Part shown: piece by piece, positions 1 through 47,390 of the stretch | Numbering within the stretch: position 1 is the stretch's first letter | Layout: every line of letters starts with the position of its first letter | Assembly: GCA_028711115.1 (NCBI GenBank) | Contig: JAQTSV010000001.1 | Coordinates: 6,032 to 70,031 of the forward strand | Length of the DNA: 64,000 nucleotides | Source: Candidatus Omnitrophota bacterium | GTDB taxonomy: Bacteria > Omnitrophota > Gorgyraeia > Velamenicoccales > JABMQK01 | Reading direction: 5' to 3' | Notes under the pieces: model-generated | Database searches by the model: none | Told to the model about the DNA's origin: nothing | Seen by the model: the letters and a program-made list of their open reading frames with translations, nothing else | Made by a program: the position numbers and the translations under genes

Positions 1-3000
1 GCTTATTAAGAGTGAGCTAATTTCATCTCTGTTTGTCAGCGCCATATTCTCTAATTGCTGTATCTGTGCATTGATGTATTCAAATATGGCTTTTGTTCTT
101 TCGTCGCGGAGCCCGTTCTCTGTATTGAATAAAGTTATGCCTGCGCCAACAGAACCTTTTACCAAATCCAAATCTCCGCCTCTGCCTTCTCTTAACTGCG
201 CCATCAAACCTGTCTGCAATTCTATATTGCCAACGCCCGATATAATTCTTTCCACAAAGTTTCGCTGCATTCTATTGTTTAGTCTATTTTCTGAGCCAGC
301 CAACACATCTCTATCAATGCTTGCGCTATAATATGCGGCGCCTAAAATTTCTCTCAACTCTTCCATGCTGTTTGTCGCTAAATCATCTATGGCTATGGGA
401 ATAGTTTTTGTCCCTGTAACTTGCTGATAATTTTCTCTTGCTGTCTGCAGCGCCTGTTGTGCGTCCTGCCAATTAGAGAGCAATTCATTAGGAATATTTG
501 CATAGCGCGGTTCATAAGTATTATATGTAAGGCCTTGTGCCTGCCAAATATCTTTTAATTCCTGCGGTATTTCTCCGCCTTCGAATAACCTTACTCTTAC
601 TGTAGCAGCCAATAAGTCTAAGTAAGCCAGCTTGATCTCTTGTTCTTTTTCTAATTTTGCGCGTTCCAATGTGAGCAGGGCGTTAAAATAATTAAATATG
701 ACGTCATCCATCTCTTTAGATTCTTTGCCGTCTTTGGCGAAAACACCGCTCAGTGTATTCCAGGCCTCGCCGGGCGTGGCTGTGATAGAAGCGACTAATC
801 CGCCTAAGAATCCTCTGTTATTTGCATCACTGTGCTGCAGAAACGCCGACACATTAAAATGATTTTCCTGAAGTTTCTTTAATAATACCTTCCAGCCTTT
901 TTCATCTAATTTAGCCAATCTTTCTTCAAATGCCTTTAATGCTCTATCGACTTCTGGATGCTGAGCGCGATATTCTTTTTCGAATTCTCCGTTATTTAAA
1001 ATCGCCAGCGCGTCTTGTAATGTTGCGGCTTGAGGGCTTGCGTCTCGTTCTCGTTCGCTCATTATATCCACAAGCTGTTGTCTTAAACGCTCGTATGCGT
1101 CTAATTGTGCTCTTTCGTCCTGTATCTTTCTCTGGGCTTTATTTTCCTTATCTAAGTTGGTGTATAATCCTAATCTTAAAGGATTGACTGCTCTGCCGCC
1201 AAACCTGACTTCAAAATGCAAGTGCGCCTCGGTTAGGGCTGCGTTGCCTGTCCTTCCGCTCTTGGCGATTATTTCACCTTTGGTGACTTTTTTGCCTTCC
1301 ACAACTCCTTCTGCGGCATTTGACAAGTGCGCATAAACAGTTACTATGCCGTTACCATGATCAATCTTTACTGTAAAACCATATCCATCTAAATTGCCCA
1401 CAAATGAAACTGTTCCTTCTGCTGCGGCGTAGACATCCGTGCCTTCGCTGGCTCTGATATCAATACCTTCGTGGAAATTCTCCAGCTTGCTTCCCGCCGG
1501 GCGCTGCCTGAATCCGTATCTGGCAATTATGTTATTCTCTATGTCGCTGCCTGAAATCGGGAATATGGCGTCTAAATCATTCCAAGATTGTGAATAATTT
1601 CCGCTGACCGCAACTTCTTCTGACTGCTGGGTATTCCAATTAGCATCTGTCTTTGCCTGTAGCACACCATATAAATAATTGGCTGTATTTTCGTTCCATT
1701 CGCCTGTTATAGGCAGCCCATTTTCTTTTTGGAACCGCTGGATAAGCGCTTTGGTATTTTCTAAATATGCGATTAAGCTGTTGTCTTTGTTTGCGTCGTA
1801 ACCTTGGTTATCTATTACTTTATAACCTAATATATCCAAAAATTTTCTATAGAATACCGCCATTTCTTTTTCGGCAAGTTTCTCTTCGACTTTCTTTGCT
1901 GTCTGCTCATTCCATCTGCCTGTAACATCTATACCTAAATTCTTTTGCAGCTCGCTGATTATGTCTCTCATCTTGCCAGTAAACACATTATCTAATTGTG
2001 GATAACCAAAGTTTTCTCTTGCCTGAGCAACGCCAAGGACTATTAACAAGTTATAAATTCTGGAAACACGAGAATCAACGTCGCCTATGCCTAAATCTAT
2101 TGCATCCAAGCCGTACATTGTGGACCTGGCCGAGCTTACGGATAATTCGCGCTCCTTTTGTTCCTGTATTTTATATTTAGCCACTAATTCGGCTAATTTC
2201 TTTTCTCTTTCGCCTTCGCTATACTTGCTTTGCCTTATATCTTCTATTGCTCTCCTTATCTCAGTTAATTCTTTACGGATAGCTTCCTGCTCATCTGATA
2301 ATTTCTTGCGCGCTTCTTGTGTTTGGTCTTTCTCTTTATTATCTTTACCCTGGAACTCATTATCTAACCCCTGCAGGACATCTCGGTTATTGCTTAATAA
2401 TTCATTCAATGCCTCTATGACAACTTGTATGCCCACTTCCTTGCTCTTCAAATATCCCAGATGGGCATTAATTCTGTCTACTTCGAATGCGGAAAATTCC
2501 TGTGAATATTTTTCTAAAGTATTTATAAGTATATCAACATCAACCTGATAGTCATAATCTTTGGCAGCGGAAACGATATTTAATACGCTAATTACATATT
2601 CCAAATAATCGCTAAGATCTCTTGCCTGTTCAATCTTATTCAATAACTCCTTCGTAGGTAAACCCTGACCTTCCCTTATGCGCGAAATAAGCTCTGAAAG
2701 AGTTAAGTCTCTCAACTGTTTATTCCTATCTTCTGCGACAGCCCGGGAAATTGCGTATTTAATGCCTTCTAATTCTACCTTATCTTTCACTGTTTCTTCA
2801 GCTTTGCCTTGCGCAATCTTTAACTGTAAAACTAAAATGTGTAATATCTGTTCTTTTGTCTTCTTGCCTATTTCGATGCCGTTGTTATCGCCTTCGGGAA
2901 TATTAAATGCCCTTGTTAAAATAAGCAGCGCGTCCCGGATTTCCTTATCGCTGAATAACTCAACACCGGATAAATCCATACCGCCCTGAATCATCCTTAT

Positions 3001-6000
3001 AAACTGCTGCATCTTATCCTGCGATTGCTCTAATACGCCGATGCTTCTTAATGCCGCGACAAGATATTCTCTTTCGACTTCCGGCTGCTTAATTCTCTCT
3101 ATAAGATATTCGGACTGCATATTCCTTAGCTGGGTTCTTGCCTGGGAAATTTCTGCGTTTAATTTATTTACTTTATCTAGTTTTTGTTTTAACGCTTCGC
3201 TATCCTGCGGATTAACAACAGTCTTGTTTAATTGCGTTAATTCTTTCTCCTTATCGCTAATAAACTTCTTCTTTTCTGCTATTTGCCTGCTGGCATCATC
3301 TGCTGGCTCGTTTTGCTGTGGCTCTGAAACATCCAATGTTTCTCTGTTGCTGCGGTTATTATTAACCATCTCTCTAACTTTGCTTTCTAAGTTGCTAACA
3401 TCGGTGTTTGCTTTATTTTTATCTGCTAGATAGCCTTTTAATTTAACCTCCAGCTCATGAATTCTCTGTTTTTCTTCCGGCGTAACATCAACTTTTGTTA
3501 TTAATCTTATGTATTCTTCTGTCTCCGGAATATGATTTATGGCAGCTTTATTTATTTCTATTCTTGCCTTGGCAATAACTATCTTCTCATTAACCAATTC
3601 TAATAATTCCTTGATTAATTCCTTTATTTCTGCGGATGTAGGTTCTGCTGAGGTGGCGGTATAGTTATGTCTCTTTCTAAAAGCATCAAGTCCTTTTTTC
3701 ATATCTTTGTCTTGCGGCTTAGCGTCGCCTAATGCGCGCAACATAGTCAGTATTTCACCTACGTTCAGCTGCGGATTGGTTTCATTCTGCAATTTCTCTA
3801 ACCGCGCTTTTTCTTTATCCAATTCTTTAGAAATACGTTCTTGTTCTGCAATGCCTAACTCTGCCTTCAGGCGTTCAATCTGCATTTCCATATCCAATAT
3901 CTTTGCATCAGCTTTACCAGATGTGGTTTCTTCTGCCTGCGCAGACTGAAGATCAAATTCAATAACCTTCTTCATTCTCTTAATCCTTGCTTCCTCTAAA
4001 GTGATACCTTCGTGCTGCGCCGACTGGATGTCTCTTATATCGCCTTCGCCGCCAAGCAAACTATAAATCCCCTGGCTGAATATTCCCTGGCTGGCAACTG
4101 GATTCATGCCTGTGGCCAATCCGTATAATCCTTCAAAAGAACCGATAACTTCATTACCAATTCCTATGATAGAACCTTGTACGGCTGTATCGGCAGCTCC
4201 CTGCAGCGTATTCTTGCCGCCTTCGAATGCGTGGGCGATGTTACTTATGGGCTCAAAAAATTGGCCGACTTCAGGAATTTCCACAAGATAATCTGCGCTG
4301 TTTGTAATGGCGCTGATTTCCGTTCCGATTATATACATTCCGCCGAAGCTCCTCCATGACTGGCCGGCAAAGTGCAAATAAATCTTTAAATAAATATTTT
4401 TTGTGAATAATTTTATCTTCGCATAATTTCCTAAAATAAATGCCAAGCCTGCAATTACAGGTATGGCTAAAACTATGATTCCCAACACAGGAGAAATAAC
4501 CCAGGCCTTTGCAGCTAATAATGGCAGGGCGAATGTGGCTAAATTGGCGAATGTAATAATCATCGGCTTTGTCTTATATGCAAACCTTGCCTTTCTTTGC
4601 GCGTCCTTTGATTTCATCTTAATTACAATCGGCTCATCTTTATTTTCATTTAATTCATTGAGTTCCTCTAATAATTTAGTGCGTATAGCCTTAATTAATG
4701 CCGGCTTAAACCTGGACTTGATTAAACCCAGCTCGTATAAATTCTTTATTGTATCCAATACTTTCTGTTTTTCTGCCGCGTCTTTATATTCCCTGGTAAG
4801 GGCTATGTAGATATCCGTTAGCTTCATACTGAAGCCGCCTACCATTTGTTTGGCCATAGCATATTTGGCAGGAATGCCGATTACCATATAACCTAAAACA
4901 ATAAGCAGCACTCTTAAAATTTGCCCTTGTGTATGCTGTATGCCTAAATTGCTTAATAAAGTTAAATTCTCCTGGCTTAAATGCATCCAGGCAATCAAAG
5001 ATTCTTTTACGTAAAATCCTAATACGCTGCCTAATATACCGGCAAACCCTACGCCTATTGCCGCGATTAAGATTCTTGCAAAATACAATCCGATGTAACC
5101 CGATAAGACTGGGTTATTGATGATAAATTTTTCTCTTCCTGCGCCCCTTATCTTAACTCCTGACTTTACGAGCTGATCATAAGCCTCCGCTTCGTCTTTT
5201 ATCTTTTGATAAAGTGTTGCATTGAGAAGATTATGGTCGTATGGCAACGCGGCTTTTGCCTTGGTGTATTCTACGGCGATGTCGCCTGCCTTGGTATTTG
5301 CCTCCTGCCTGTCCATAAAGAAGTTCCAGAATACTGAAACTAGATATCCGCCGAACACGCTCATAAATAATCCCAGGATTATAGCTGTAAATGTTATGTT
5401 TATCGCAGGAACAGTCACTATCACGAAGGCAGATATGGCCATCCAGATGTAGGTCTCGTAGGAAGCCAAAACTTTCCTAGGTTTAAAATAATCAATTATA
5501 GAATGCCTGTTCTGATTTCTTAAATCTCTGCGTATTCTGCCAAAAGCCCAGTATTCGGCAGGCGTGAAATTGGGTTTAAAGCCTAATCTTTTCTTAAGAC
5601 TATTGGTTATATAGGCGACTTTACCTTTTGCCAGCCTTCTTACGCTCACTACATTGTGGAATAATGACCAGGCAATAATTAAACCAACAAAAGAGTATAT
5701 TGCTGTATATACAAGTGGCACTAATAATGGCGAAATTCCCCAGCCCGCAACATTCAAAGCAGGAATCATTGTAAATAAATATGTAGAAATAATGACGAGT
5801 GTCAATAAGAATGCCACAACATAGCCGGAAGATAATATTGTGCCGAGTTTGGTATTCTTTATGGAAGGAGCGTTCTTTATGGCGGGAATCTTGGAAACTA
5901 ACTTTAATATCAATGTAGCTAAAGTCGAAATTGCAGCCAAGAGTATTGCCGGATGTTCACTGAATAACGCAATTAACAATTCCATAACCAAAGCTGGGGT

Positions 6001-9000
6001 TAAATTACTAGTAAGAGGAAGTAATACTAAAATAATTACGAAAAAGATTCGTAGCGCTAATTTATGAGAAGATAAAACTGAAGATTTAGGCGTAGTCTTT
6101 GTTGAATCTGTTGTATTGTCATCGGATATCGGGCTGCTGGAAATTCCTGTCTTTTCGGCTGACAGGCCTGCCTCCTTCACCGCCCTTGTCTGACTGACAT
6201 TGCCAATGCCGGCAATTTGGCTCAAATCTTGTTTAGTCATATTAAACGCAGCAATCGGGCTGGAGGATTCTCTCTCAATGCGTTCTTCTTGCATAACTAA
6301 TCTTACCGTGTGTATCTGGCCTAATTCTAAATTTGCTTTAGCCAATCTGTCATTTATTCCCAATAGATCAAATGAAACCTCAATGACTTGAGCAATAATT
6401 CCTGTGGCGATATCGAAAACAAATGTTTCATGTCTTTTTAATAATTTTAATTCTCTCGCCCTTTCTCGCATAATCATACCAGCCGTGATCACGTTAGGAT
6501 TCAATTCAAGGCTAAACTTTCTGATTACTTCTTCAATATGCCTTAATTCTAACAGACCGCTTAAAGGAGTTGTCCAGCCTCTTACTTTATCATTCAATGG
6601 CAAGCCTTTTGACTGCTCAAAAGCTTCTCCGCACTTTGCAATGAGGGCACGGTCACTTAATTCTCCACCGATCAATTCAGCAAGTGCTGTTTCAAATGCT
6701 GGTATTGGTGAACCATCCGGCATCCTTACAATAGTATCGCTATAGTCAGCAACAGCAAGTGCCCTGGGGCTCAAATGCTTTGTTTGAGGATGTGCGTTTT
6801 GGAGTTGGCTGCGGACTAACTGTTCGCTAAATGCATCTCCTTCTACATTAACTAAGAGCTGATTTTCAAACCATTTCACCATCCTGTTATCGCCTAAAAC
6901 CCATGTTCCAGGCGCATATGCTTTTGACCCTACAGTAGCAAGAGGATTATTCGTTTCTATTATTTCTCCTGTGAATATAAACCGTTTTTGTATCGGGCTA
7001 GAGGAAATTCCAACCCCATCCAGAGACCCAGCAACAGCGGGGGTGGTGCTGTTTCTCTGCCAAGCCTCTGGATTGGTTTGTATACCTATCTCTACTTCCT
7101 TCCTGCCACGGTAGGATGAGATAGGTGACGAAGAAATTCTATATCCGGATAATATAGCTTTAAACACAAGCCACACAATCGCCTTGTTGACATCATCATA
7201 TTCATTTATACGATTAAGCCATTGTATTGCCTCATCTGATGTTTTTGTAAATACCACTATTGTTTGCGGAGTATCTTTAGAATCTAAACTACGGATAATT
7301 TCATTGTTTACAAAATCATAAACTTCAAAATTTAAATTGCGGTATCTTTGTAATTCTTCGATATAAGCGCGGCGGCTGGCTTCTCTTAATGTGTAGAATT
7401 CATTGGTGGCTTCCATAGGAACAAATATTATGGTGCGTCTTTTTGCCTGGAACATATCGGACACTATCTGCCTGAATGTCTGATAGTGGCATACGCCAAA
7501 AGCGCCGCCTGTGACAACGAAAATATCGCCGGCTTCTAACATTGTTACCTGGGCCTGGCCTTCCACTAAACCGGCCTGTGAATGATAGGCAAATGTTCCT
7601 TTTCTTGTTTCATCTTGGCGCGGATAATTTGTGCCTGCGCTTATGGAATTAAGGGCAATCCTTCTGTCAATTATTTCGCTGTAATATAACGGGTCTATAC
7701 CTTCAGCCATTTTCTCATGAATCTTTGATTCGGTATTGCCGACATGGGTAATTGCGAGCGTGGATTCAGGATTTGATCCAGCCACCAAGAACTCAATAAT
7801 GCGGTTTATGAACTGCGCATTCATACTTACTAAATCCAGAGGGCTGCTGGAGGGGGTATTGCCAACAGCCAATTTCTCTGGATAAGTTTGCTCCTCTGCA
7901 CCTGCCACGGTAGGCGAGGAGCTGGTTTGTTCATTATTTATAATTCTATATCTGATCGGGGACGAAGCCCGGGATGTTCTTTTTAATTCACGTTGCAATG
8001 GTTGATCTTTCTTGCTTAAATATGCCAATCTATTCATTATCTCCATAGCTGATATTCGACCTTGAGTCACTACTTCTAAATTGGCAACTTCCTCGTCTAC
8101 TCCGGTAAGCGCTGCGCTAAGCAGGAATCCGTTTACAAAATTTAGTTTTCTCTGCAAGTTCCACCTTCTCCATAATGTATCAGCTGCCTCTATTACCTGT
8201 TTCTTCATATTTGATGGGCTGGAGCTGGTTCTTGTCTCTTTCACATCCATAGTGCTGCTGGAGGGGGTATTGCCAGCAGCACTTGGATTTTTATATGTTG
8301 CTCTGAAAGCACCTGCCACGGTAGGCCTCAAAGCAACCTGTGAATAAAATCTATCTGTTAAATTATTATTATTGATAATTACGGGTGAGGATATTGACGT
8401 GTCTATATTTGTCTGACGACCTGGCTCCTGTTTCAGGATGGGCGATGAGCCAGCCGCCATAATCGGAGTTGGCGCCAATCCTGTGCGAAGTGTCTGGGCT
8501 AAAGAAGCAATTACAGGGCTGTGATTTATGTTAAACTGCTCATCTATTGTCAAAACTCTTTCGCTTAAAGACGTAACGGAATTTACAGTAATCGGCGAAG
8601 AAGATCTTCCTCTGCCTGTGAATCCCGTGCTTCTGGCATTTCTTCTATTATTCCTGCCAGACATTTTGATAACAACTTTGGATGCTACTCTAATAATTCC
8701 TAAAACAACTTTCACTATACCTATAATAGAAACCAGCGTGATAACTGCCAAGTGCGTTACTGCACCTTGCCTTTTCTCAAAGTTTCCATGTATTGCCCTT
8801 TGCACAAATTTTGTTTCTCCCAAAACTTTTGCCGTTAACTTTGCCCTGAAAATTTCCAAGCGGCTCAAGCCTGAATATAGTCTGTATCTTATATGACCGT
8901 CGCCAGGGATTTTTAACCTTATTTCCCGCTTGCGCGCATAAAGCCTGTAAGCAGAATACAATCCTAAGATAACAAGTGCTCCCGCTGCAAAGAACTCAGC

Positions 9001-12000
9001 TATCCTCTCGCCTATTGTCATCATCATTCTATGCCTTGCCTGACGTTCTGCCTGTTGTATTGTTTCCTGCGATTGTGTATATTCACTATGAGACTTTTCT
9101 ATTTCTCTTTTTACCAATTCAGAAATTAGTTCGCCGTTTAACAAATATCCTCTTTCTTGTAAATGCGCGGTGAGTTCATTTAATTTTTCATTCCTGTAAG
9201 CATATTGTTCCGGATTATTTCTTATATTCAATGCCTCCTGGGCAAGCAGCCTGTATGTGTCTGGTGAAACATTCTGATCAAAGATAGGTAATACCCAATC
9301 GCTTGCACCATAACCATAGAGGTATTTCTCGACATAACCTTCGCTTAGGAAGAAAGCCAATAAAGAAGCCAGTTTATAGTCAAAAACCTGGCTTTCACGC
9401 GGATTGTCGTGTTCAATAAGCCTGAAATAAACTCTCTTTCTGCCTACGATTTCTAATCTGGAATTACGTTCCGTTAAAAGCTCATAACGCAACTTATCTT
9501 GTTCTGCATTGACAATACCTTTATATAATGCCAGAAACTCCAGACGTTTCCTCATATAGTTAATAGGCTCGGCGAGCCTCTTTCCTTTTTCAGTCTTGAT
9601 ATTCTTGGTCCATTCTATGTTTCCGTTGAATCTCGCAATCGCCCTGTCCACATTTGTGGTGCCGCAGTTGTACGCGGCGATAGTGGCCAAAGCCACGTCA
9701 AATCCATTGCCGTGCAGGCTGGCATAATCCAAAGTCTTGTCGGTTAACTGAGAACCAACCAAGACTTTCCTGCTATACCTGTCCCAGAGATACCACAAAT
9801 AGCTGTAGCCGATTCTCTGGTTATATAATTTATCGGTTTCGATTCTGCCGGTTCTTCTTTCTTGTTTCTTTGCCTTTTTGGTACCGGCAATGTATTCCTG
9901 GAGAGCGGCTTTTTTCTGTTTATTATCCAGTGTATGGTTATTATAAATCATTTCTACAATATCTCTGCCGATATTATCCCTGAATACCTTCATTCTTTGT
10001 ATATCTCTCGGGATCATTGCTATTGCTTCTGCGAAACTGGCCGGGCTAAATCCTGTATTGGGATTGGCCCTTACAAGCCCTTCGGGAATATTCTCCAACA
10101 TCTTTTCTATTGCTGCTTTTTCTTCAGCACCTGCCTTTAACCAAGCCGCAGCCAAGACATAATAGAGATTTACTCCCACAAGATTTTTGTCATCAATTAT
10201 CCTGCTATTTATTCTTCTCATCGCCTTTTGTTTATTGCCCGTATTATTGTACAATTTTATTAAATCTGCGATAACCTGATTACCTATATATCCTCTATCT
10301 GTCTCTTCTTCGCCCGCAAGCGAACCTACCCTTAATAATATGTCAAACAACATATTCACCATATGGTCTACAGCGTAATGCGGTACAACCTGGGTTGTCC
10401 CCAGGGCGCCTCTATAGGAAGTCACGACCAAAATCCTTCCCCATTTATCCAGCTGGAATTGCCTGAAGGCGGATTCGATATAATTCATCGACTCGGCCAA
10501 GTGCATAAATTCTTGTGATGCACCTGTTGCCGCCACAAATCTCTCTAATTCTTTGTATGTCAGGGTCTTGGTCCATTCTTGGATATCAGAAGGAACTGCG
10601 GAGAAGGATATCTTGGATATCTGCCGGTCTAATAATTCGTCCAATTTCTTTGCATCCTGTTCGTGCTCGCCGATTAATAATCTGATGTATAATTTACCTT
10701 CTCTTTCTTCAAAATCGACGAATTCAGCCAAACCATTTTCAGTTAAAACGCTTATTAATGTATCGTAATTTTGGGATCCTATAAATTGTTTCTCATCCGT
10801 AAATCCACGCACCTCTGCGCGCAAATCTGTGGGGTTCTCAAAGAATGTCGGCTGCGATGGCTGAGGCATAGTTGCCTTATGCTCAATTTGCCTACAGCTA
10901 TTCAAAGCCATAGCCAAAACTATAACTAATAATAAACTCCTGACCAACGGTGTCTTTCTAAACACCTCTAACGGCGAGGAAGCAGTCGCGCCTTCAAATC
11001 TTGCGCGATTGTCTCGGATGTATTGTAAAGAAGGTGCGACATACGGATGACTGATTTCTTGTTCCGGCATACGCTTTAACATCTCATCTAATAATTTCAA
11101 ACTAATCTTAATAACATCCAAGCGTTCATTTTCTTTCATCAATAACTCTAAATCCCTAATCATTCCAGCCCTGAAACTATCAAGTTCTTTTCCTTTTGTG
11201 AGCTCCTCAAGATATGACTCTCTGCCAAATGCCTCTAACACAGCCAAGGCAACATCCATTCTTGTTACTGTGAACTCTAATTCTGGGTATTGAGCCTCTA
11301 CTCCGTTGCTGGCTTCTCTACAGCCCTCTCCGGCTCCGATCAAACCAACCAGGAGCGCTGTAATAAAAATATCAAGATTAAATGGCTCGACGTTTCCAAA
11401 ATCAATAATTACTGCCTCATCTGTTGACTCGTTTGTTAATATGTTCATCGGCGTAGGATCTAAAATGAATTCTGACCCTTGCAGTTCTTTTACAATGGAA
11501 GCATAAACCTTAACCGCGTGGTAAAATAGTTTTAACCATCGTTCTTTTCTATCTTTAAGTTCTTCTCCTGCTCGAGGCTGCATTAACTTATCTAATCTGG
11601 GGAACTTTATATAGGCCTCTGTCCACATACCCTCCTGCCCTTTTTCTCTTTCTATAATCAAGGAGGCAGACCTAAGGGCTGTGGGCCGAGATGAAAGTAT
11701 CATATGCCTAAGGACTTCTCTGTTTAAACTTGACCACTTCCAATCCTGCCTTCTTACCACGCTATGTCTTATTGGCTTTACTACAAATTTGTATGTGGTG
11801 ATTTTTCCATTGATAAGAGCATCGACTTCCACCAAGAATACTGTCTTAAAAGCACCTTCATCTAAAAATCTTATCCTGGAACTAACCATTTGTTCCAATG
11901 TTAACCTGACATTATGTTCAATGAAGATAGTCTTTCTGGCCAGGGCATTTTCAGCCATATGTCTCAATATATATCTCCTTGCCCGCATGTAATCTTCTTT

Positions 12001-15000
12001 GTAGGCTTCGAAACTCATTGCATCATTACCATAGAAATTGTTATATCTTTCTCTTAACTCATTTTCTAATATTTCGCCTGATGGTTCACATTCTTCAGTC
12101 CCTGGCCTAATAAATTTAATTCCCAAACCTCTTCGCATTAACTCTCTAATACTAAATCTTTCCGGGAATAAAATATCTAGTTTTTCTTGTATGGCATTTA
12201 AAGCGTCATTGGCACGTTCTACAATTGAATTAGCCTGTTCATTAGTGAGCTTACCTCTCTCTTTAAATAAATTTCTATAATAAACCAATTCGGCAAGCAC
12301 GCCTCTGGCCATAAGGAAATCAGTATTGGTTGTAAATTCCATATCTCCCAATTGTTTAATTAAACCAAGCGTATCTTCACCTGCTAGTAAATTAAAGGAT
12401 ATGCGCCGTCTCAATTCCAATGCAATATCCGCTACTGTTAATTCTCTTATCGGGCTGGAGGCGGAACCGAATATCTGTACTCCTCTATCTAATAAAGTAT
12501 AAGGTAAGGCCATAATTATCTTTGTATCGCTAAGATTTGCTGCAGTTAAAGAAGCGGCAAACGCCTCTAATGTATCTCTTCTTTCTTTAGGTTCGGCCTT
12601 CCAGTTAGCAGCAATAATAGAATTTCTTCCTTGAGTAAGAGTTATCGGCGCAGGACCTATTACTTCAGCGATTTTGGCAATACTGGTAAATGACTCGGCC
12701 TTGAGACTTGCGCCTCCAATTAAGGCACCATCAATATTGGATTGGGATAATAGCTCTTGGGCATTGGTAGGATTAACGCTGCCACCATAGAGTATTTTTA
12801 ATTCTAAAGATAATACTCTGCTGTAGCTCCTTCTTATAAAATTACGGATTGCGTAGCTTATTTCTTCAGCTTGCTGAGGATTTGCTGTCAGACCAGTGTT
12901 TATTGCCCAAATAGGTTCATAGGCAATAGCTGTTAAGTAATTTAAGGCCTCTGGTCTAATGCCCCTTAAATTCTGTTCAAGTTGAGTTAAGACATAATCT
13001 AAATGTCTCCTTTCTTCTCTGACAGCTAGGGGTTCTCCACAGCAGAGTATTATCTCAAGGCCGTCGGGGGTAAGTACGGCCATTAGTTTTTCATTAATTA
13101 ATTTATCTGAATCGCCTTCTTGTATGCGTTCGACAACGGGTTTACCTTCTGGGCTACGTAAGACTGCTTTACCTGTATCATCCTTTTTATAAATAGGTAC
13201 ACCAGCCCTTGTTTCGCTATGACCAAGGAGTGAACCAAAGACACGTATTTCTCTTAAAAGTGCTAGATTTATCTTTCCTGTATGAGCACCCACTTCAAGG
13301 CTAAAGTCCTGAGCATAGATTGTTACCGGGCTGGAGGCGGAATAAATCTGTGTAATCTGCGGTATTAAATCTGCGTAATCTGCGGTTGCAGAGACAAAAA
13401 CACCCCTGACGTTCAGATTGTCCTTGTAATCTGCGAGGGTTCTTATATTATTTTTGGTTACAGGGCTAGAAAATACGAATTCCGAGAGCCTGTTTGAGGT
13501 TGCACTCGGGGACCTTGAGATTCCGTGGCTTTTTAACACAACAGAATTTCTGTCTGACTCTTTTATCGGGCTAGAGCCAGATGTCCGAACCTGATTTTCT
13601 AATCCAGTTAAGCCTTGTCTTAGGGCTTGTGCACTACCAGCCGCCATTACGGGCAGACTCATAATGCTTAACCCTAAAGCCCTTGGCCTTATACCTATAT
13701 TTGCTGCTCTGACGTTAGCTTGCGCTAAACTTATAAGGTATACACCTTGAGCATCCCCAATGCTGACAACTATTAAATTGCCTGCATTTTGGCCTAAGTT
13801 CTTTCCAAGAGAGAACTTAGAAGACCCAACCAAATTATAGCCGTAAACATACCTAGCTGTAGTGGAGTTCTCTAATCCTAGAGCACACTTGTAAGCAGAG
13901 AGACTTACAAGCGGCGAACTCACACCAGGGCTGCGTGCGCCATGATCGTTGCCAAGGTTAGTCCTTGACATACGATCTGGAGTAAGTTCACCTATTTGCC
14001 TTGCAAAAGGATCAGAAAGGGCAATAGGTGAGGAGATACTAAGAACTGCGGGTTGAAGCGCAGGAATATTGCTTATCACAAAACTATTCGTATTCTGTGT
14101 TGGCAAAGGCAATTGCACTGGAGATGATGTGGATATAGGCACAGCAGGAACTCTTGAAACAGGTGTCTGCTGAGATTCTGCTGTATTTTGTATCGGCGAA
14201 ACTGGAGCCAATAAATTATTCTGTATGTCTCTTAAATTTTCCAAGCCGGTAGCCAGCCTATTGGCCAAAGGCGAAGACGCTGGCTTGGTTACTTGTTTTT
14301 CAATTGCCATTTCCGGCATTGGCAGTTTAATTTCAGGAATTCTCCTTGTGCTTGCGCTGCCAACACCCAAAGGAGAACTCATTCTATTAAAGGCATTGCC
14401 TGTGCCTATACCGCCGCCAATACCAACATTGTTTGAGCCAAAACCTCTGCTGCCTGCAGCAAAACCTGTTCCGGCACCAGGCGCACCAGCATTATATCCG
14501 GCTATATTTCTGTTACCTATATTAGTTAAGGTTTGCGACTTAAGCGGCGAAGAAGCTGCATCTTGGAATCCTGCTAAATCGAAGAACAACTTGTTCTCTG
14601 TTGTGACTAAATCAATAGGCTGTTCATCTCTATCAACAGATAACTCCCAATCCAATTTTCTTATTATGCCTTTTAATTCATCAAATGTGCCAATGACATT
14701 CTGTAAATTGTCATTATCTAAACCTCGTCTTCCCCCCGCTAACAAACTTAAATAACCATAAATAGAACCAAATCCACGATTAGCGATATCAACGTTTACC
14801 CAACGACCTCCATAAGTCAAAGCATTCCACAACGGATAGATTTTTTCGTAGTTTGGTAATTCTTGGACAGGTATGAGATTAGTCTGCAGCTGCATATCTT
14901 TTGCTAATTGTACTGCGCCTTTAAAGGACTGTGCGCCTCTCATGCGAGAATGCAGTAAAAGCCCTAAAGGCCGCATTACTTCAATATCATATCTGTTATA

Positions 15001-18000
15001 AATTCTCTTAATCTCTGCGAGTTTGGTTTTATTAAGAGTTTTTAAATCCGTAACCTGCAAAGGCCCGATAATCGTTTCTGTCTTTTCCACAAAAGGCCTG
15101 ATGAATTTATCAACAAATTCCCTCGCCATACCTCTGAGATTTCTGGCTTCTGCTCCGCTTATGGTCTTGGAAAGTTTATAACCTTCCGGCAGCTCTAACG
15201 GCGATGAAACAGCAACCTGTGATATTCGCTGGCTAATCCAATCCAAATCAACATCAATCAACTGATGAGATTTGGCATTCTGGGCTAATTGTATAGAATC
15301 CTGTTGAGCCAACCAGCTATCGAATATACTGATTATGCTGCTTACGTGGTCAAAGGCGCCTATAACATTACTCAAATATTTTTCTGCAAGTTTTGGATTA
15401 CTTTTCATCGTTTGTAAAAATAAAGCAATAAGACCAAAACCCCTGTTCATAATATCTATTGTGTCATATTCCGGCTGTCCGTTGGTTAACGTATTTATAA
15501 CCACCGGCGCGACTCTAGCATACTCTTCAAAGCCTGTGCCTGCTATAGCGCCATACGTCATCTGCATGCGAATTTCATCCAGAGGATCAATTACATTGCG
15601 GCGATAGTTATCGTAAATCTCGGCAATCTTATCTATATCTGGATTAGTGAAATCCATGGAACGTAAAGGTGCAATTACTAATCTGAGAGTCTCTGCTAAA
15701 TAAGGCCTTAATACTCTACCAATAAATTGTTTGGTTAAATATTTGAAATCTACGGCTTGCGGGCCGGTGATAGGAGCTTCTAGCCCAGTGGTAGGATCTT
15801 TTACTCTCTCATAACCCAGAGGCAGTACTGTTGGCAATATTGGAGATGAGGCTGTCAAAGAAGTTGTAGCTGACTGCATTGCAGGCGGCGCGCGGGTTGG
15901 AGTTATGAACATTTGTTTCATTGCACTGACACTCATTTCCTGTATCTTAACTTCTCCGATTTGCGTAAGCGGCGAACTGGCTGCTTCAGGTGCTACCGGC
16001 ACCCAAGCATTCATCGTCACATCTTCTATATTCATTCTTAACTCTTTTACATAATATTTATAAGCTGCTAATGCCCTATGCGAACCATCTAATAAAATTT
16101 GTATATGAGTCCCTGGTAATATATCCATCACTATCCTGTGATTTTTATCTCCTTTTCTTAACAACTCGACATATTCATCAACCAACGCGATTCTTCTGCC
16201 TCTGTCTGCGATACTCTTAAGCATCGGGTTAGCATCAAAAATATCTTTTAAAGACACTGCAACTTGTACCCAGTCATAATTTTTTAACCTATCAAACGTT
16301 CCATCAACACCGAATAAATCCTCGTGCTCTTTTATAATACCGTAAACCTCATCCCAATTCTTTCCTACTGGTGAAGATGCTGCGGGTTGCATAGACATTT
16401 GCTGCAACTGTTGCGCGATTGGTGAAGAAATTTCCGGCTGCCTGTATGTATTTATAACCAATTCGTGTACGGCTTCGCCTGTCTTGGGAGAATTACCAAG
16501 ATAACGCGGTGAATATGTTGCATTGGTTAATTCACTATGCAGCCTTTCAATTGTCTGAATAGTAACTGGGCTGGAGCTGGGGCCAATTATATGTATTTCT
16601 GAAGCAACATTAGCATTAACCAATGCCTGAATATCTGCTGCTCTTACGTCTTGATTAGGCGTAATCGTCAACACTCTGCCGTCGTAGGAAATAACTTTCG
16701 TATTCCTGAGAACTTCTGCAGCCGAATTCATTTGCTCAATCACCGGCGAAGAAGATTCTGGTGCCAACGCGGCTATTCTTTCTTTCGCCTGAATAAGTTT
16801 GCCTGCCGAATAGATATCCAACATCTCTGATAAAGGAACTCTGGCCAGAGCCAATGCTTCACCTCTACCCTGCCATGCCGCTGTCTGCGTTGATATCGCA
16901 GATATCGGGCTGGATGAAATATTAAATTGTGGCTGCGATAATTCCGGAGCAGCTGACGCAGCTATCGGAGAAGAGACAACATTAGCCGTCTGTTGATTTA
17001 TAGGCGAAGAAACGCCCAAGAAACTATTTAGATGAGGCGTCATTGTGGTATCGACTTTATAATGAGTACCGCGTATAGCATCGACCAACTGCTGAGACGC
17101 CATTGTCTTAACGCTATCGAAATTGACTCCTGTTAAACCTTGTAAGCGCTCATCAAGATCTTTTGTAGAATTTATTTTTGCGTTTACCATAAACTGAGCT
17201 GCCAAGTAGGTATTCAAAATATTTCTTTCGTCCTGCGAAAAACCGCCTGATAAACCGCTTGTCGTTGGGCTGGTGCTTAAAATAACCTCTAAAATATCGT
17301 GCGCGAAATTAAACTGGCTGGTTCTTGCGTCACGCATTGACTCTGGGCTAACTATTAATCTATATCCTCTGCTTGAATTCCTAGGATCAATTGGCTCAAT
17401 CAATGTACTAACACCTCTCTTAATATCTGCTGGGCTGGCAATTAATATTTCTTTTATGATATCCTCTTTGGCAAAGCGTGAAATTTCAACACCTTTATCT
17501 TTGGCAAACTTCGCAACCTGCGGCCAGATGCCTTTTATATTCTTGGTTATCTTTTTAATCAGAGTGGGCTGTTGTTTGCTAATAGCTGCCCTGATAAGAT
17601 CATTGTCATGATCGGATGCCGGTTCATCCGTATAATCAATCCTGCCGCCGTTTGTCCATTGCACAAAGTCGGCTATTTCTGAGATAAGGTCTTCTGGGGA
17701 CATGGCATTAATTTCCTGAGCAAGGCTTAAGAAAGTATCGCTTTCGTTGTTGAGCGTGCGCTCTCCGAGGTTCTGTATACGAAGACTACCTGGGTCAAAC
17801 TTTATCCTCTGCGGATGAGCCACTGCAAATTTAGTTGTTTCACGTAAACTGAAATACTGTGTGAGCATTTCATTTATGTTCCACTCTGAACGTTTAAGAC
17901 TAAGAAGCGCAAGAGGCGTATCCAGAGAGCTGGATATTGCACTTAACAAAGCTTTGTATTCTGCTTCTGTTACGCTCCCGCTTAATTTTGAAGTATCGCT

Positions 18001-32991: not shown

Positions 32992-32998
32992 GTTTTAT

Positions 32999-33889
32999 TT
33001 ACCTTAATCCTCCCAAGCCTCCGGTAGTGACAAATTGCAATAATACCGGTCCTCCCACAATTACGGCCACCACAGGCAGAATAAAGAATATCAAAGGTAT
33101 GAGCATCTTCATGGGTGCCTGCAGGGCTATCCTTTCCGCGCGTCTGAAAAACCTCTCGCGTACATCGTCTGAAAGGACGCTCAATGCCTGGGCAATAGGA
33201 ATACCCATTCTGTCGGCCTGAATGAGCGTGCGGCAAAATGCTGTGACATCAGGAAGGCTTAAGCGTTTTGCCATATCCGCAAGTGCGTCCCTGCGAGACT
33301 TTCCTACTTTTATTTCGTGTAATACCAAACTAAGCTCCTCTGTAAATGCATTAGCAAAAGATTTATCTACAATCCATCTGGCTGCGGCAATGAAATCCAG
33401 GCCTGCATCCACGCACAACGATAATAAATCCACCGTATCCGGAAGCGTCCGGATTATTTTTGACCTTCTATCCTGTACTTTAAAATTCAGCCAAATGTCC
33501 GGTGCGATAAAACCCACTATAGGCAGTATTATTAATGGCGCCACATCGCCGCTTCTTATGAACAGAAAAGTCAAAAACAAAAAGAAGAATGCCAATAATT
33601 CTTTTATGGCCAGGAAGTGCTCCGGCATCATAAATAACCTGGCTGCAAACATTTTCTCTTCCATTTTATTTCTCTTAAAAAATTTATTAACCAGCATATA
33701 GTTAACCGGCACGAAGAAATCCAGCATCGTGCCAAAGAAAGATTTTTTATTCTTGGTGCTGTATGCGTCCACCTTCAGTCTCCGTTGAATTGCCGTCTTT
33801 AATTCATAGGAGGTAAGCATTACAATCAAAACATTTGCCAGCAGTACGATTATCGCTATAAATAGAATTATCTGTGCAATTATCTCCAT
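32999..33889 (-). CDS. tadC: Tad pilus assembly inner-membrane platform protein TadC (T2SS-F family)
   Basis: 296-aa ORF. LPDTVDLLSLCVDAGLDF..LHEIKVGKSRRDALADMAKRL..FCRTLIQADRMGIPIAQAL..FILPVVAVIVGGPVLL is a typical TadC/GspF-type domain with flanking TM helices. Confidence 0.85.
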   Translation of the reverse strand: MEIIAQIILFIAIIVLLANVLIVMLTSYELKTAIQRRLKVDAYSTKNKKSFFGTMLDFFVPVNYMLVNKFFKRNKMEEKMFAARLFMMPEHFLAIKELLAFFFLFLTFLFIRSGDVAPLIILPIVGFIAPDIWLNFKVQDRRSKIIRTLPDTVDLLSLCVDAGLDFIAAARWIVDKSFANAFTEELSLVLHEIKVGKSRRDALADMAKRLSLPDVTAFCRTLIQADRMGIPIAQALSVLSDDVRERFFRRAERIALQAPMKMLIPLIFFILPVVAVIVGGPVLLQFVTTGGLGGLR

Positions 33890-33897
33890 ATCCTCTC

Positions 33898-37517: not shown

Positions 37518-37560
37518 CTGCAAAAATCTGCGAATATTTTTTGCAATAATTCTGCCAGAC

Positions 37561-37830
37561 TTAGTGAGATTCGCCAAAGATATCAAGTTTCGGATAATTT
37601 GATTCATTGATATACACCCCCTCGTTACCTGCAGCAATACTGCCGGCTGCAACTCTTGTTGATTCGTAATCTTCCTGGCGATGTGCCAGTCTTTCTGTAA
37701 ACCATATGAACATATATATAGCACCGGATAATAATACCGTCAGGCAAATAAATGCCAGGGTTATCTCCAGAGTTGCCTGAGCCCTTTTTGATTTATGCTG
37801 CCTGTCTGTTTTTACTGACCTGTCTGCCAT
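37561..37830 (-). CDS. TadE-like pseudopilin
   Basis: 89 aa. KRAQATLEITLAFICLTVLLSGAIYMFIWF is a TadE-type N-terminal helix. Confidence 0.6.
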   Translation of the reverse strand: MADRSVKTDRQHKSKRAQATLEITLAFICLTVLLSGAIYMFIWFTERLAHRQEDYESTRVAAGSIAAGNEGVYINESNYPKLDIFGESH

Positions 37831-47360: not shown

Positions 47361-47390
47361 TTTGAGGGTAATGGGTAAACGCTTTATTTT

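What the first reader, a model, noticed from the sequence alone, without database searches (positions are those of the whole stretch)
11330..11960. Protein-kinase-like domain inside the giant protein
The kinase subdomain motifs occur in the right order and spacing: glycine-loop-like DEGAFKTVF, Lys in YKFVVKP, Glu in NREVLRHM, catalytic-loop-like ILDPTPMNIL, and DFG in VIIDFGN. A kinase-like module between TIM and SLT modules in a presumably exported protein is unexpected. It could phosphorylate small molecules or lipids (Kdo-, aminoglycoside- or ABC1-like kinases) or be a pseudokinase scaffold.
Basis: partly seen in the sequence, partly recalled or inferred. Interest (0 to 1): 0.6.

Follow-up and report, generated by a model that had tools for sequence, protein, structure and literature searches.

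The report
Divergent protein-kinase-like module in giant protein
A stretch of about 300 residues inside a giant bacterial protein of more than 11,000 residues (probably from Omnitrophota) is a real but extremely divergent relative of Hanks-type (eukaryotic-like) protein kinases that keeps its catalytic residues, so it is a new small branch of a well-known enzyme superfamily rather than a new kind of thing.

Summary
All five motifs are on the minus strand at the stated coordinates, inside one stop-free frame of at least 10,997 codons (window 32991 down past 1).

No Pfam, NCBIfam, PHROG, PADLOC or PDB sequence search recognises the region. AlphaFold2 failed twice (pLDDT 41 and 38).

A search of 1.84 billion representative proteins found one homologue (E 9e-7), a module in another giant protein, with more canonical motifs (IGEGAW, AIKP, DPKPANIMI, DLG). 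A profile of the two sequences matches a profile of 83 eukaryotic-like protein kinases (ePK): hhalign probability 96.9%, E 1.6e-10. The Gly-loop, Lys, Glu, catalytic Asp, Asn and DFG all align in register. Shuffled, reversed and tiling controls are clean. ABC1, APH and Kdo/LPS-kinase comparisons are far weaker.

It is therefore a new, tiny, divergent ePK-like family, probably able to transfer phosphate.

"Exported" is doubtful for this segment. A signal-anchor/lipobox-like stretch separates it from an SLT-like region. The homologue lies beside RelA/SpoT, methyltransferase and PRTase domains, with no membrane segment between them.

Substrate, activity and topology remain inferred. Interest is moderate.

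The parts
11095..12009 (-). Kinase-like module as a whole (ORF-frame aa 6996-7300). It comprises an N-terminal helical extension of about 45 aa, the N-lobe, the catalytic core and a helical C-terminal part.
   Evidence: It is the only region shared with the other giant protein P0001 (BLASTP aa 6996-7247 vs 4186-4468, E 5e-12; phmmer E 9e-7 over 1.84 billion representatives). The alignment is A1.
11212..11874 (-). Core that aligns to eukaryotic-like protein kinase domains (aa 7041-7261, matching PknB residues 14-216).
   Evidence: hhalign against the 83-sequence ePK profile: probability 96.9%, E 1.6e-10, 190 columns. Against the 4-sequence reference profile: 93.2%, E 2.9e-7.
11836..11862 (-). 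Degenerate glycine-rich loop DEGAFKTVF. Only G7047 (= PknB G20) is kept; D7045 replaces G18 and A7048 replaces G21. The homologue has GEGAWK.
   Evidence: Residue map from the hhalign alignment. G is invariant across all 38 sequences of the MAFFT alignment A4.
11776..11778 (-). Codon of K7073 in FVVKP, the beta3 'VAIK' lysine equivalent (= PknB K40).
   Evidence: Invariant in the homologue, which reads AIKP.
11716..11718 (-). Codon of E7093 in NREVLRH, the alphaC glutamate equivalent (= PknB E59).
   Evidence: Invariant in the homologue, which reads KREMLRH.
11443..11466 (-). Catalytic loop ILDPTPMN. D7179 = PknB D138 (catalytic base) and N7184 = N143 (Mg ligand). T7181 replaces the Ser/Thr-kinase Lys. 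The His and Arg of HRD are I and L.
   Evidence: The homologue reads LEDPKPANIMI, against PknB HRDVKPANIMI. D, P and N are invariant in A4.
11395..11403 (-). DFG motif (D7198-F-G), the Mg-binding aspartate.
   Evidence: The homologue has DLG.
11281..11289 (-). YPE (aa 7236-7238), a possible equivalent of the APE motif that ends the activation segment.
   Evidence: YPEL is conserved in both family members. MAFFT aligns its P-E with the APE of all 36 kinases. hhalign places APE ten residues earlier, so the assignment is uncertain.
10894..10950 (-). Hydrophobic signal-anchor, or lipoprotein-signal-like segment, directly after the module: FRKTPLVR / SLLLVIVLAMAL / NSC (aa 7349-7367).
   Evidence: Kyte-Doolittle 19-residue mean of 1.93. 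The sequence was read directly. The n-region/h-region/Cys layout is my reading and has not been tested.
9661..10482 (-). SLT-like (lytic transglycosylase) region downstream of the hydrophobic segment, with motifs YIESAF (aa 7505), GTTQV (aa 7532) and AAYNCG (aa 7773).
   Evidence: Weak Pfam SLT hit, E 0.03 and 14.3 bits, below the 21.3-bit cut-off. The motifs were read in the sequence.
12670..13359 (-). Triosephosphate-isomerase domain upstream of the module (aa 6546-6775).
   Evidence: Pfam TIM, E 3e-53 to 3e-56. NCBIfam TIM models match but below their equivalog cut-offs.
1..32991 (-). The giant ORF that contains everything above. It has at least 10,997 codons from the ATG at 32991, and its 3' end lies beyond window position 1.
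   Evidence: Other domains:
- N-terminal signal-peptide-like segment
- Peptidase_C39 (aa 187-276)
- PG_binding_1 (aa 1741-1793 and about 10410)
- Peptidase_M23 (aa 10507-10605)
.

Best explanation
Window 11095-12009 (minus strand) encodes a real protein-kinase-like domain. It is a very divergent relative of Hanks-type (eukaryotic-like) Ser/Thr protein kinases, and it forms a discrete module inside a giant, membrane-associated protein of more than 11,000 aa from a probable Omnitrophota genome.

Shown here:
- The module is homologous to ePK domains at the profile level.
- Its Gly-loop glycine, beta3 Lys (K7073), alphaC Glu (E7093), catalytic Asp (D7179), Asn (N7184) and DFG (D7198) align in register with those of PknB, PKA, CDK2 and ERK2.
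- All of these residues are conserved in the only homologue found.
- That homologue is likewise a module in an otherwise unrelated giant protein.

Inferred:
- The domain binds ATP-Mg through K7073/E7093, N7184 and D7198 and transfers the gamma-phosphate to a hydroxyl group with D7179 as base.
- Because its nearest relatives are protein kinases, the likeliest substrate is Ser/Thr of a protein: the giant protein itself or a partner.
- It lacks the HRD Arg (a 'non-RD' kinase), so it would not need activation-loop phosphorylation.
- It faces the cytoplasm and is tethered by the hydrophobic segment at aa 7349-7367 to an SLT-like, peptidoglycan-directed region on the other side of the membrane. This local layout recalls PknB-type receptor kinases (kinase, then transmembrane segment, then wall-binding ectodomain).
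For: - Motifs are present and ordered.
- phmmer over 1.84 billion representatives finds one relative, P0001, at E 9e-7. It has more canonical motifs: IGEGAWKMSF, VVFKAIKP, REMLRHQ, LEDPKPANIMI, FVDLGE.
- All catalytic positions are invariant at 28% overall identity.
- hhalign of the two-sequence profile:
  - against PknB alone: 61.7%, E 7.7e-5 (the PknB sequence was verified against PDB 5u94/1mru)
  - against 4 ePKs: 93.2%, E 2.9e-7, 156 columns
  - against 83 ePKs: 96.9%, E 1.6e-10, 190 columns
- Controls:
  - shuffled columns reach at most 23.6 against the real score of 74.0, and the reversed alignment scores 15.7
  - the giant's sequence alone gives 79.3%
  - in a tiling of both giants only module-containing windows score
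  - an ePK HMM run over both whole giants reports only this region
- An independent MAFFT alignment with 36 kinases puts G, D, P, N and the DFG Asp in invariant columns.
- Residue map.
- Cytoplasmic placement:
  - P0001 has hydrophobic segments only at aa 1275-1411
  - its kinase module (aa 4184-4520) shares one transmembrane-free stretch with AprA-type methyltransferase, PRTase and RelA_SpoT domains
  - in the window, a signal-anchor-like segment separates the module from the SLT-like region
Against: - No Pfam, NCBIfam, PHROG, PADLOC or PDB sequence match to any kinase family for the window sequence. A profile of the two sequences also finds nothing in PDB.
- Both AlphaFold2 runs gave unusable models (pLDDT 40.9 and 37.8), and Foldseek on the first gave nothing significant. 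The bilobal fold is therefore not shown structurally.
- The Gly-loop keeps one of three glycines. The HRD His and Arg are absent. The catalytic-loop Lys is Thr in the window protein.
- The C-lobe hallmarks (alphaF Asp, alphaH-alphaI Arg) are not recovered, and the APE assignment differs between aligners.
- The family has only two known members, so conservation statistics are thin.
- Topology is unresolved. The only strong hydrophobic segment between the N-terminal signal peptide and the module is aa 4202-4220, and there are several weak ones at aa 3500-4800.
- No activity data exist.
Confidence: 0.72

Rival explanations
1. It has the kinase fold but is a pseudokinase, or a nucleotide-binding scaffold or switch, with no phosphotransfer. 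It would hold neighbouring modules of the giant protein together or sense ATP/ADP.
For: - The Gly-loop is degenerate (DEGAFK).
- HRD is replaced by ILD.
- The catalytic-loop Lys is Thr.
- Divergence from every kinase family is extreme.
- The C-lobe substrate-binding hallmarks are not recovered.
Against: All five residues normally lost in pseudokinases (beta3 Lys, alphaC Glu, catalytic Asp, Asn, DFG Asp) are kept in both members despite 28% identity. That pattern argues for selection on catalysis. Non-RD kinases, and kinases with reduced Gly-loops, can be active (established knowledge of the family).
Confidence: 0.17
2. It is a small-molecule (sugar, lipid or antibiotic) kinase of the ABC1/UbiB, APH or Kdo/LPS-kinase type. 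It might work with the adjacent TIM domain on phosphosugars.
For: - The catalytic loop D-P-x-P-x-N-I resembles the ABC1 signature D-x-H-P-G-N-I.
- Pfam ABC1 is the best kinase family for the homologue's module (E 0.11, 12 bits, below cut-off).
- hhalign to UbiB-family profiles aligns the catalytic loop and DFG in register.
- A glycolytic TIM domain lies about 270 aa upstream.
- Sugar-metabolism and kinase/phosphotransferase clusters are described in other Omnitrophota giant proteins (10.64898/2026.06.07.730766).
Against: Profile-profile scores are far lower than for ePKs. ABC1: 1.1% and 7.2%. SrkA 0.2%, NPTII 0.3%, WaaP 0.0%, WaaY 0.8%, against 61.7-96.9% for ePKs. There are no Pfam hits to APH, Kdo, RIO or choline-kinase models. 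The comparison profiles for these families were shallow, so this is not a strong exclusion of small-molecule substrates as such.
Confidence: 0.1
3. It is a chance constellation of short motifs in a long, fast-evolving protein, with no kinase fold.
For: No curated HMM or PDB sequence hit. AlphaFold2 does not fold it. The individual motifs are short.
Against: - hhalign E 1.6e-10 over 190 columns.
- Shuffle, reversal and tiling controls are clean.
- The only homologue in 1.84 billion representatives conserves exactly the catalytic positions and carries the near-canonical DPKPANIMI.
Confidence: 0.05

Closest known systems
Hanks-type / eukaryotic-like Ser/Thr protein kinases (Pfam Pkinase PF00069), e.g. 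M. tuberculosis PknB
   Same: - Profile-level homology over about 190 columns (96.9%).
- Gly-loop glycine, VAIK Lys, alphaC Glu, catalytic Asp, Asn and DFG are all in register.
- The homologue's catalytic loop DPKPANIMI is 8/9 identical to PknB DVKPANIMI.
- The local order is kinase, then hydrophobic segment, then a peptidoglycan-related region. This parallels PknB's kinase, transmembrane segment and PASTA domains (architecture read; PknB architecture from established knowledge).
   Different: - It falls below every Pfam/NCBIfam threshold.
- Only one of three Gly-loop glycines is kept.
- There is no HRD His or Arg.
- Thr replaces the catalytic-loop Lys.
- The alphaF Asp and alphaH-alphaI Arg are not recovered.
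- It is embedded in the middle of a protein of more than 11,000 aa rather than at the N-terminus of a receptor kinase.
- The ectodomain is SLT-like, not PASTA.
ABC1/UbiB (ADCK) atypical kinase-like family (PF03109)
   Same: - D-P-x-P-x-N-I catalytic-loop signature.
- A helical N-terminal extension before beta1.
- A membrane segment C-terminal to the domain, as in E. coli UbiB.
- A weak Pfam hit for the homologue (E 0.11).
- The catalytic loop and DFG align in register.
   Different: hhalign probability is only 1-7%, and only about 45-70 columns align. The N-lobe does not align. As a positive control, the same ABC1 profile matches the ePK profile at 98.8%. The module is therefore not closer to ABC1 than to ePKs.
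Giant multi-domain membrane proteins of Omnitrophota ('Archaeovorin'-type; West-Roberts et al. 2023 preprint 10.1101/2023.11.21.568195; 2026 preprint 10.64898/2026.06.07.730766)
   Same: - The host protein has more than 10,000 aa.
- It has an N-terminal signal peptide followed by a C39 peptidase domain.
- It carries TIM and peptidoglycan-directed domains and many hydrophobic segments.
- It lies directly downstream of a T2SS/Tad-like locus (T2SSF x2, CpaF-like ATPase, secretin, RcpC), as those papers describe.
- The closest CpaF homologues are in Ca. Omnitrophota MAGs.
   Different: Neither preprint's main text mentions a protein-kinase (Pkinase) domain in these proteins. No SecA_DEAD domain was found in the part of the protein that lies in the window.

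Membership tests
Protein-kinase-like (PKL) superfamily / ePK (Pkinase PF00069) | Match to the curated family HMM above the gathering threshold | tested here: not met
   No Pkinase or PK_Tyr_Ser-Thr hit at E<=10 for the window module or for the homologue. NCBIfam also returns nothing.
Protein-kinase-like (PKL) superfamily / ePK (Pkinase PF00069) | Statistically supported homology to kinase domains (profile-profile) | tested here: met
   hhalign gives 93.2% (E 2.9e-7) and 96.9% (E 1.6e-10, 190 columns).
Protein-kinase-like (PKL) superfamily / ePK (Pkinase PF00069) | Glycine-rich loop GxGxxG | tested here: inconclusive
   The window protein has D-E-G-A-F-K: only the middle Gly (= PknB G20) is kept. 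The homologue has G-E-G-A-W-K.
Protein-kinase-like (PKL) superfamily / ePK (Pkinase PF00069) | beta3 Lys (VAIK) and alphaC Glu | tested here: met
   K7073 = PknB K40 and E7093 = PknB E59. Both are invariant in the homologue.
Protein-kinase-like (PKL) superfamily / ePK (Pkinase PF00069) | Catalytic loop HRDxKxxN: catalytic Asp and Mg-binding Asn | tested here: met
   D7179 = D138 and N7184 = N143. Both are invariant in all 38 aligned sequences. The His, Arg and Lys of the loop are not kept (I, L and T respectively).
Protein-kinase-like (PKL) superfamily / ePK (Pkinase PF00069) | DFG motif | tested here: met
   D7198-F-G aligns to PknB D156-F-G. The homologue has DLG.
Protein-kinase-like (PKL) superfamily / ePK (Pkinase PF00069) | ePK-specific C-lobe: APE motif, alphaF Asp, alphaH-alphaI Arg | tested here: inconclusive
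   The conserved YPE (aa 7236-7238) aligns with APE in MAFFT but not in hhalign. The alphaF Asp and the Arg are not recovered in either alignment.
Protein-kinase-like (PKL) superfamily / ePK (Pkinase PF00069) | Two-lobed kinase fold | tested here: inconclusive
   AlphaFold2 with the two-sequence alignment gave pLDDT 40.9 and 37.8. Foldseek against PDB gave no hit with E<=0.001.
Protein-kinase-like (PKL) superfamily / ePK (Pkinase PF00069) | ATP binding and phosphotransfer activity | not testable with these tools
   This needs biochemistry.
ABC1/UbiB (PF03109) | Family HMM or profile match covering the N-lobe and catalytic core | tested here: not met
   Pfam gives nothing for the window module. 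For the homologue it gives E 0.11, 12 bits, against a cut-off of 22.9. hhalign gives 1.1% and 7.2%, covering the catalytic loop and DFG only.
Aminoglycoside/APH-type kinases (PF01636) | Family HMM or profile match | tested here: not met
   No Pfam hit. These were single-sequence targets only.
Kdo / LPS-core heptose kinases (PF06293) | Family HMM or profile match | tested here: not met
   No Pfam hit. hhalign against E. coli WaaP gives 0.0% and against WaaY 0.8%.
RIO kinases (PF01163) | Family HMM match | tested here: not met
   No Pfam hit at E<=10. No profile-profile test was run.
Omnitrophota giant proteins (host protein) | More than 10,000 aa, an N-terminal signal peptide plus C39 peptidase, many transmembrane segments, and an upstream T2SS/Tad-like locus | tested here: met
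   The features are as described in 10.1101/2023.11.21.568195. The phylum is only inferred, from the best CpaF homologues (56% and 52% identity to Ca. Omnitrophota MAGs).
Omnitrophota giant proteins (host protein) | Divergent SecA_DEAD helicase domain (present in most full-length examples) | tested here: not met
   Not found by Pfam in aa 1-10,998. The C-terminal remainder, up to about 1,950 aa by the contig offset, lies outside the window and was not examined.

The most novel reading that the evidence does not exclude
The kinase module, the signal-anchor segment and the SLT-like region form a self-contained transmembrane signalling unit inside the giant protein. It would work like a receptor kinase that couples cleavage or binding of prey or own peptidoglycan outside the membrane to phosphorylation inside, and so controls the predatory or attachment machinery.

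A variant reading is that the lipobox-like Cys (aa 7367) marks a processing site. In that case the giant ORF is a polyprotein that releases a cytoplasmic kinase-bearing piece and a lipoprotein lytic transglycosylase.

The alternative placement is also not excluded: TIM and the kinase are truly exported and act in the prey.
Probability: 0.15. Interest if true: 0.65.

Novelty: new variant of a known kind. Interest (0 to 1): 0.4.

Why it matters
- **Annotation gap.** Giant Omnitrophota proteins are largely unannotated, and their mode of action in predation or parasitism is unknown. A conserved, probably active kinase module that standard annotation (Pfam, NCBIfam) and AlphaFold2 with a two-sequence alignment (the only homologues available) both miss shows that regulatory, signalling-type enzymes hide in the 'dark' stretches of these proteins.
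- **Topology.** The module gives a concrete handle on the disputed topology. A kinase and a TIM domain make sense only where ATP and triose phosphates are available. This bears on the open question, raised in the 2023 preprint, of whether glycolytic-type domains in these proteins are really extracellular.
- **Kinome.** It adds a tiny outlier family to the bacterial kinome: two members among 1.84 billion representative proteins at E<0.001.
- **Limits.** The enzyme superfamily itself is very well known, and nothing here is experimentally supported.

Tried and rejected
- **Family and sequence searches.** Pfam and NCBIfam scans of the module at E<=10 and E<=1 gave no kinase family. PHROGs and PADLOC gave nothing. 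PDB sequence searches found no kinase, whether run with the module, its core, the homologue's core or the two-sequence profile.
- **Homologue searches.** The search for homologous proteins found nothing with the module or with alignment A1. It may not index such long proteins, because it missed P0001 itself. The search for related loci with A1 found no relative in genome contigs or metagenome contigs. The back-translated patterns were too specific to find 30%-identical relatives, so this is a weak negative.
- **Structure.** AlphaFold2 was run on aa 6950-7300 and on aa 7039-7300, each with the two-sequence alignment, and gave pLDDT 40.9 and 37.8. It would in any case have been partly circular.
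- **ABC1 as closest family.** I considered this first, because of the D-P-x-P-x-N-I loop and the Pfam hint, and rejected it after hhalign.
- **Other checks.** There are no internal paralogues of the module in either giant protein, no internal repeats in the giant, and no other similarity between the two giants. Searches for the assembly accession and for Omnitrophota + giant protein + protein kinase found no paper. Searchable supplements did not list Pkinase.
Full report
**1. What is there**

The finding lies on the minus strand, inside a single stop-free frame. The frame starts just after a stop at window 32995-32997 and runs past window position 1: 10,998 codons, with the first ATG at 32991. 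I number residues by position in this frame, so the ATG is residue 2.

- DEGAFKTVF, aa 7045
- YKFVVKP, aa 7068
- NREVLRHM, aa 7091
- ILDPTPMNIL, aa 7177
- VIIDFGN, aa 7195

These map to window 11862-11392.

**2. The host protein and its origin**

An exact-sequence look-up of a neighbouring gene places the window on contig JAQTLW010000001.1 (1.55 Mb) of assembly GCA_028714715.1. The closest relatives of that gene among species-representative genomes are two Candidatus Omnitrophota MAGs, at 56% and 52% identity. The phylum is therefore an inference.

The giant protein contains:
- an N-terminal signal-peptide-like segment
- a Peptidase_C39 domain at aa 187-276
- PG_binding_1 at aa 1741-1793 and about aa 10410
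- a triosephosphate isomerase domain at aa 6546-6775 (E 3e-53)
- Peptidase_M23 at aa 10507-10605
- a cluster of strongly hydrophobic segments at aa 8973-9521

It lies immediately downstream of, and co-oriented with, a Tad/T2SS-like locus: two T2SSF genes, a CpaF-like ATPase, a secretin and RcpC.

This is the picture described for giant Omnitrophota genes. They have C39 near the N-terminal signal peptide, TIM and other glycolytic-type domains, many transmembrane helices and a conserved upstream secretion locus (10.1101/2023.11.21.568195; 10.64898/2026.06.07.730766). Neither text mentions a protein-kinase domain.

**3. Direct tests of the kinase idea fail at the sequence-HMM and structure level**

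- Pfam holds Pkinase, APH, ABC1, RIO1 and Kdo models. It gave no kinase hit for the module even at E<=10.
- NCBIfam, PHROGs and PADLOC gave nothing.
- PDB sequence searches gave nothing relevant.
- AlphaFold2 was run twice with the only alignment I could legitimately supply (two sequences). It gave pLDDT 40.9 and 37.8.

**4. One homologue, and what it shows**

An exhaustive phmmer search of 1.84 billion representative proteins found a single relative with E<0.001. This is P0001: 6,192 aa, E 9e-7, 31% identity over the matched stretch. It is an incomplete giant protein on contig JACOUC010000061.1 of assembly GCA_016178055.1.

The two giants share nothing except this module (BLASTP aa 6996-7247 vs 4186-4468, E 5e-12, with no other hit). 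The module is therefore a discrete, shuffled domain.

The P0001 copy is more canonical: IGEGAWKMSF, VVFKAIKP, REMLRHQ, LEDPKPANIMI and FVDLGE. Its catalytic loop matches M. tuberculosis PknB (HRDVKPANIMI) at 8 of 9 positions.

**5. Profile-profile comparison settles the homology**

hhalign of the two-sequence profile (A1) gave:

| Target | Probability | E-value | Aligned columns |
|---|---|---|---|
| PknB alone (sequence verified identical to PDB 5u94/1mru) | 61.7% | 7.7e-5 | 43 |
| PknB + PKA + CDK2 + ERK2 | 93.2% | 2.9e-7 | 156 |
| 83-sequence ePK profile (those four plus 79 kinase domains from viral contigs) | 96.9% | 1.6e-10 | 190 |

The third alignment pairs giant aa 7041-7261 with PknB residues 14-216.

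The residue map is:

| Giant protein | PknB | Role |
|---|---|---|
| G7047 | G20 | Gly-rich loop |
| K7073 | K40 | beta3 Lys |
| E7093 | E59 | alphaC Glu |
| D7179 | D138 | catalytic Asp |
| T7181 | K140 | catalytic-loop Lys position |
| N7184 | N143 | Mg-binding Asn |
| D7198-F-G | D156-F-G | DFG |

The HRD His and Arg are Ile and Leu in the giant protein.

Controls:
- 100 column-shuffled versions of A1 score 14.4 +/- 2.5 (maximum 23.6, maximum probability 3.7%), against 74.0 for the real alignment. The reversed alignment scores 15.7.
- The window sequence alone still gives 79.3%.
- An ePK HMM run over both entire giants reports only this region in each.
- In a tiling of both giants into 95 windows of 350 aa, the two windows holding the module score 79.5% and 68.7%, and partly overlapping windows score 30%, 13% and 10%. 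The best unrelated window scores 4.2%.
- An independent MAFFT alignment with 36 kinases puts the loop Gly, the catalytic Asp, Pro and Asn, and the DFG Asp in invariant columns. It also aligns a conserved YPE (aa 7236-7238) with the APE motif. hhalign places APE elsewhere, so I treat that point as open.

**6. Which kinase family?**

| Comparison | hhalign probability |
|---|---|
| Enterobacterial UbiB alignment | 1.1% |
| ABC1 profile broadened with eight viral relatives | 7.2% (catalytic loop and DFG only) |
| E. coli SrkA (APH family), single sequence | 0.2% |
| APH(3')-IIa, single sequence | 0.3% |
| WaaP, single sequence | 0.0% |
| WaaY, single sequence | 0.8% |
| UbiB, single sequence | 0.8% |
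| PknB, single sequence | 61.7% |
| ERK2, single sequence | 76.7% |
| CDK2, single sequence | 2.4% |
| PKA, single sequence | 0.3% |

As a positive control, the broadened ABC1 profile matches the ePK profile at 98.8%. The only Pfam hint is ABC1 for the P0001 module, at E 0.11 and below cut-off.

My reading is that this is an outlier family of the protein-kinase-like superfamily whose nearest tested relatives are Hanks-type ePKs. It is not a member of Pkinase, ABC1, APH, Kdo or RIO by their own HMM criteria. The non-ePK comparison profiles were shallow, so the ranking is indicative rather than final.

**7. Active or not?**

Both members keep the beta3 Lys, the alphaC Glu, the catalytic Asp, the Asn and the DFG Asp. 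These are the residues usually lost in pseudokinases. The departures are:
- a reduced Gly-loop (one glycine in the window protein, two in P0001)
- no HRD His or Arg
- Thr for the catalytic-loop Lys, in the window protein only

By what is established for the superfamily, these are compatible with an active non-RD kinase, but they weaken the case. I rate catalytic competence as more likely than not. This is inferred, not shown.

**8. Where is it in the cell?**

Two observations argue that this segment is cytoplasmic.

First, in P0001 the only hydrophobic segments are at aa 1275-1411. The kinase module (aa 4184-4520) lies in one uninterrupted soluble stretch with other domains:
- an AprA-type SAM methyltransferase
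- a phosphoribosyltransferase
- a RelA/SpoT domain

All of these enzymes need cytoplasmic cofactors.

Second, in the window the module is followed about 50-80 residues later by FRKTPLVR-SLLLVIVLAMAL-NSC (aa 7342-7367). This has the layout of a signal anchor or lipoprotein signal: a positive n-region, a 12-residue hydrophobic core and a Cys. After it comes a region with lytic-transglycosylase motifs: IESAF at aa 7506, GTTQV at aa 7532 and AAYNCG at aa 7773. Pfam SLT matches at E 0.03, below cut-off.

A wall-cleaving region must be outside the membrane, so the kinase would be inside.

The weak point is the count of membrane crossings upstream. Between the N-terminal signal peptide and the TIM domain there is one fair candidate (aa 4202-4220) and several weak, glycine-rich ones at aa 3500-4800. 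The 2023 preprint itself notes that transmembrane predictions for these proteins are unreliable, and that an overlooked helix may explain 'extracellular' glycolytic domains.

**9. Mechanistic proposal**

Shown: the module is an ePK-like domain with an intact catalytic residue set.

Inferred:
- It does so on the cytoplasmic face.
- It is tethered to a peptidoglycan-directed region on the other face.

This is the same logic as PknB-type receptor kinases (kinase, transmembrane segment, wall-binding ectodomain), here embedded in a polyprotein-like giant.

Rivals are a pseudokinase scaffold, a small-molecule kinase cooperating with TIM, and chance. The exported-effector reading is kept as part of the novel case.

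**10. Novelty and score**

The protein-kinase-like superfamily and bacterial Hanks-type kinases are very well known, and giant Omnitrophota proteins with many enzyme domains have been described. What is new is a specific, very small and very divergent kinase-like family. Standard annotation misses it, and AlphaFold2 could not fold it from the two-sequence alignment available. It sits in two unrelated giant proteins and has a suggestive kinase / anchor / SLT-like layout. I class it as a new variant of a known kind and score interest 0.4.

Noticed in passing
window 10894-10950 (-), aa 7349-7367: An internal segment with the layout of a lipoprotein signal peptide sits in the middle of the giant ORF, between the kinase module and the SLT-like region. 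It reads FRKTPLVR (positive), SLLLVIVLAMAL (12 hydrophobic residues), N-S-C. It could be a signal anchor, a relic of a gene fusion, or a processing/lipidation site.
   Followed up: partly
window 9661-10482 (-), aa 7505-7778: The lytic-transglycosylase motifs IESAF, GTTQV and AAYNCG are spread over about 270 aa, with a large insertion between the second and third. Pfam SLT matches only at E 0.03, below cut-off. This is probably a very divergent SLT domain.
   Followed up: partly
window 12670-13359 (-), aa 6546-6775: A triosephosphate-isomerase domain (Pfam E 3e-53) lies inside the giant protein. The match starts at profile position 45-46 of 245, so the N-terminal strand that carries the catalytic Lys/Asn may be missing or divergent. 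NCBIfam TIM equivalog cut-offs are not reached.
   Followed up: no
window 32999-59543 (-): A Tad/T2SS-like locus lies directly upstream of the giant gene and is co-oriented with it. It includes two T2SSF genes (32999-34782), a 721-aa ParA/CpaF-fusion ATPase (53760-55925), a secretin with TonB-like domains (55969-57624) and RcpC. The last T2SSF gene ends 8 bases before the giant gene's ATG. This matches the conserved locus described for Omnitrophota giant genes.
   Followed up: partly
window 18600-22500 (-), aa ~3500-4800: There is a run of about nine weakly hydrophobic, glycine-rich segments (Kyte-Doolittle 1.4-1.9), for example aa 3510, 3880, 3968, 4003, 4094, 4202, 4320, 4458 and 4768. There is no Pfam match here. 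Whether these cross the membrane decides the topology of the TIM and kinase segment.
   Followed up: no
window 4432-6078 (-), aa 8973-9521: A cluster of eight or nine strongly hydrophobic segments looks like a polytopic membrane domain, with no Pfam match. A weak GNAT (Acetyltransf_3) hit, E 0.03-0.05, lies at about aa 8583-8658.
   Followed up: no
window 32167-32436 (-), aa 187-276: A Peptidase_C39 domain (E 4e-7) lies about 150 aa after the N-terminal signal-peptide-like segment (MISQTRTKTGGFKTWMKVIALILVVTFAPEQVAWA). This matches what is reported for other giant Omnitrophota proteins.
   Followed up: no
window 44040-52995 (-) and 60063-62811 (+): Neighbouring genes include a PstS-like phosphate-binding protein (47391-48290), a Porin_5 protein (48272-49804), a HAMP-PAS histidine kinase (51103-52995) with a response regulator (52865-53560), and a FIST-domain protein followed by a second histidine kinase (60063-62811). 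Three large ORFs (35019-37724, 37812-38948 and 41814-43358) have no Pfam match.
   Followed up: no
locus L002 (P0001, contig JACOUC010000061.1): The other giant protein carrying the kinase-like module combines AprA-type methyltransferase, PRTase, cysteine-dioxygenase-like cupin and RelA/SpoT domains in one TM-free stretch of about 4,800 aa after a small cluster of hydrophobic segments. Its N-terminus is cut by the contig end. Its taxonomy was not determined.
   Followed up: partly
The search for homologous proteins: The word-indexed protein search did not return P0001, even when P0001's own module was part of the query alignment. Very long proteins may be under-represented there, so 'no homologue' from that tool is a weak negative for domains of giant proteins.
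   Followed up: no
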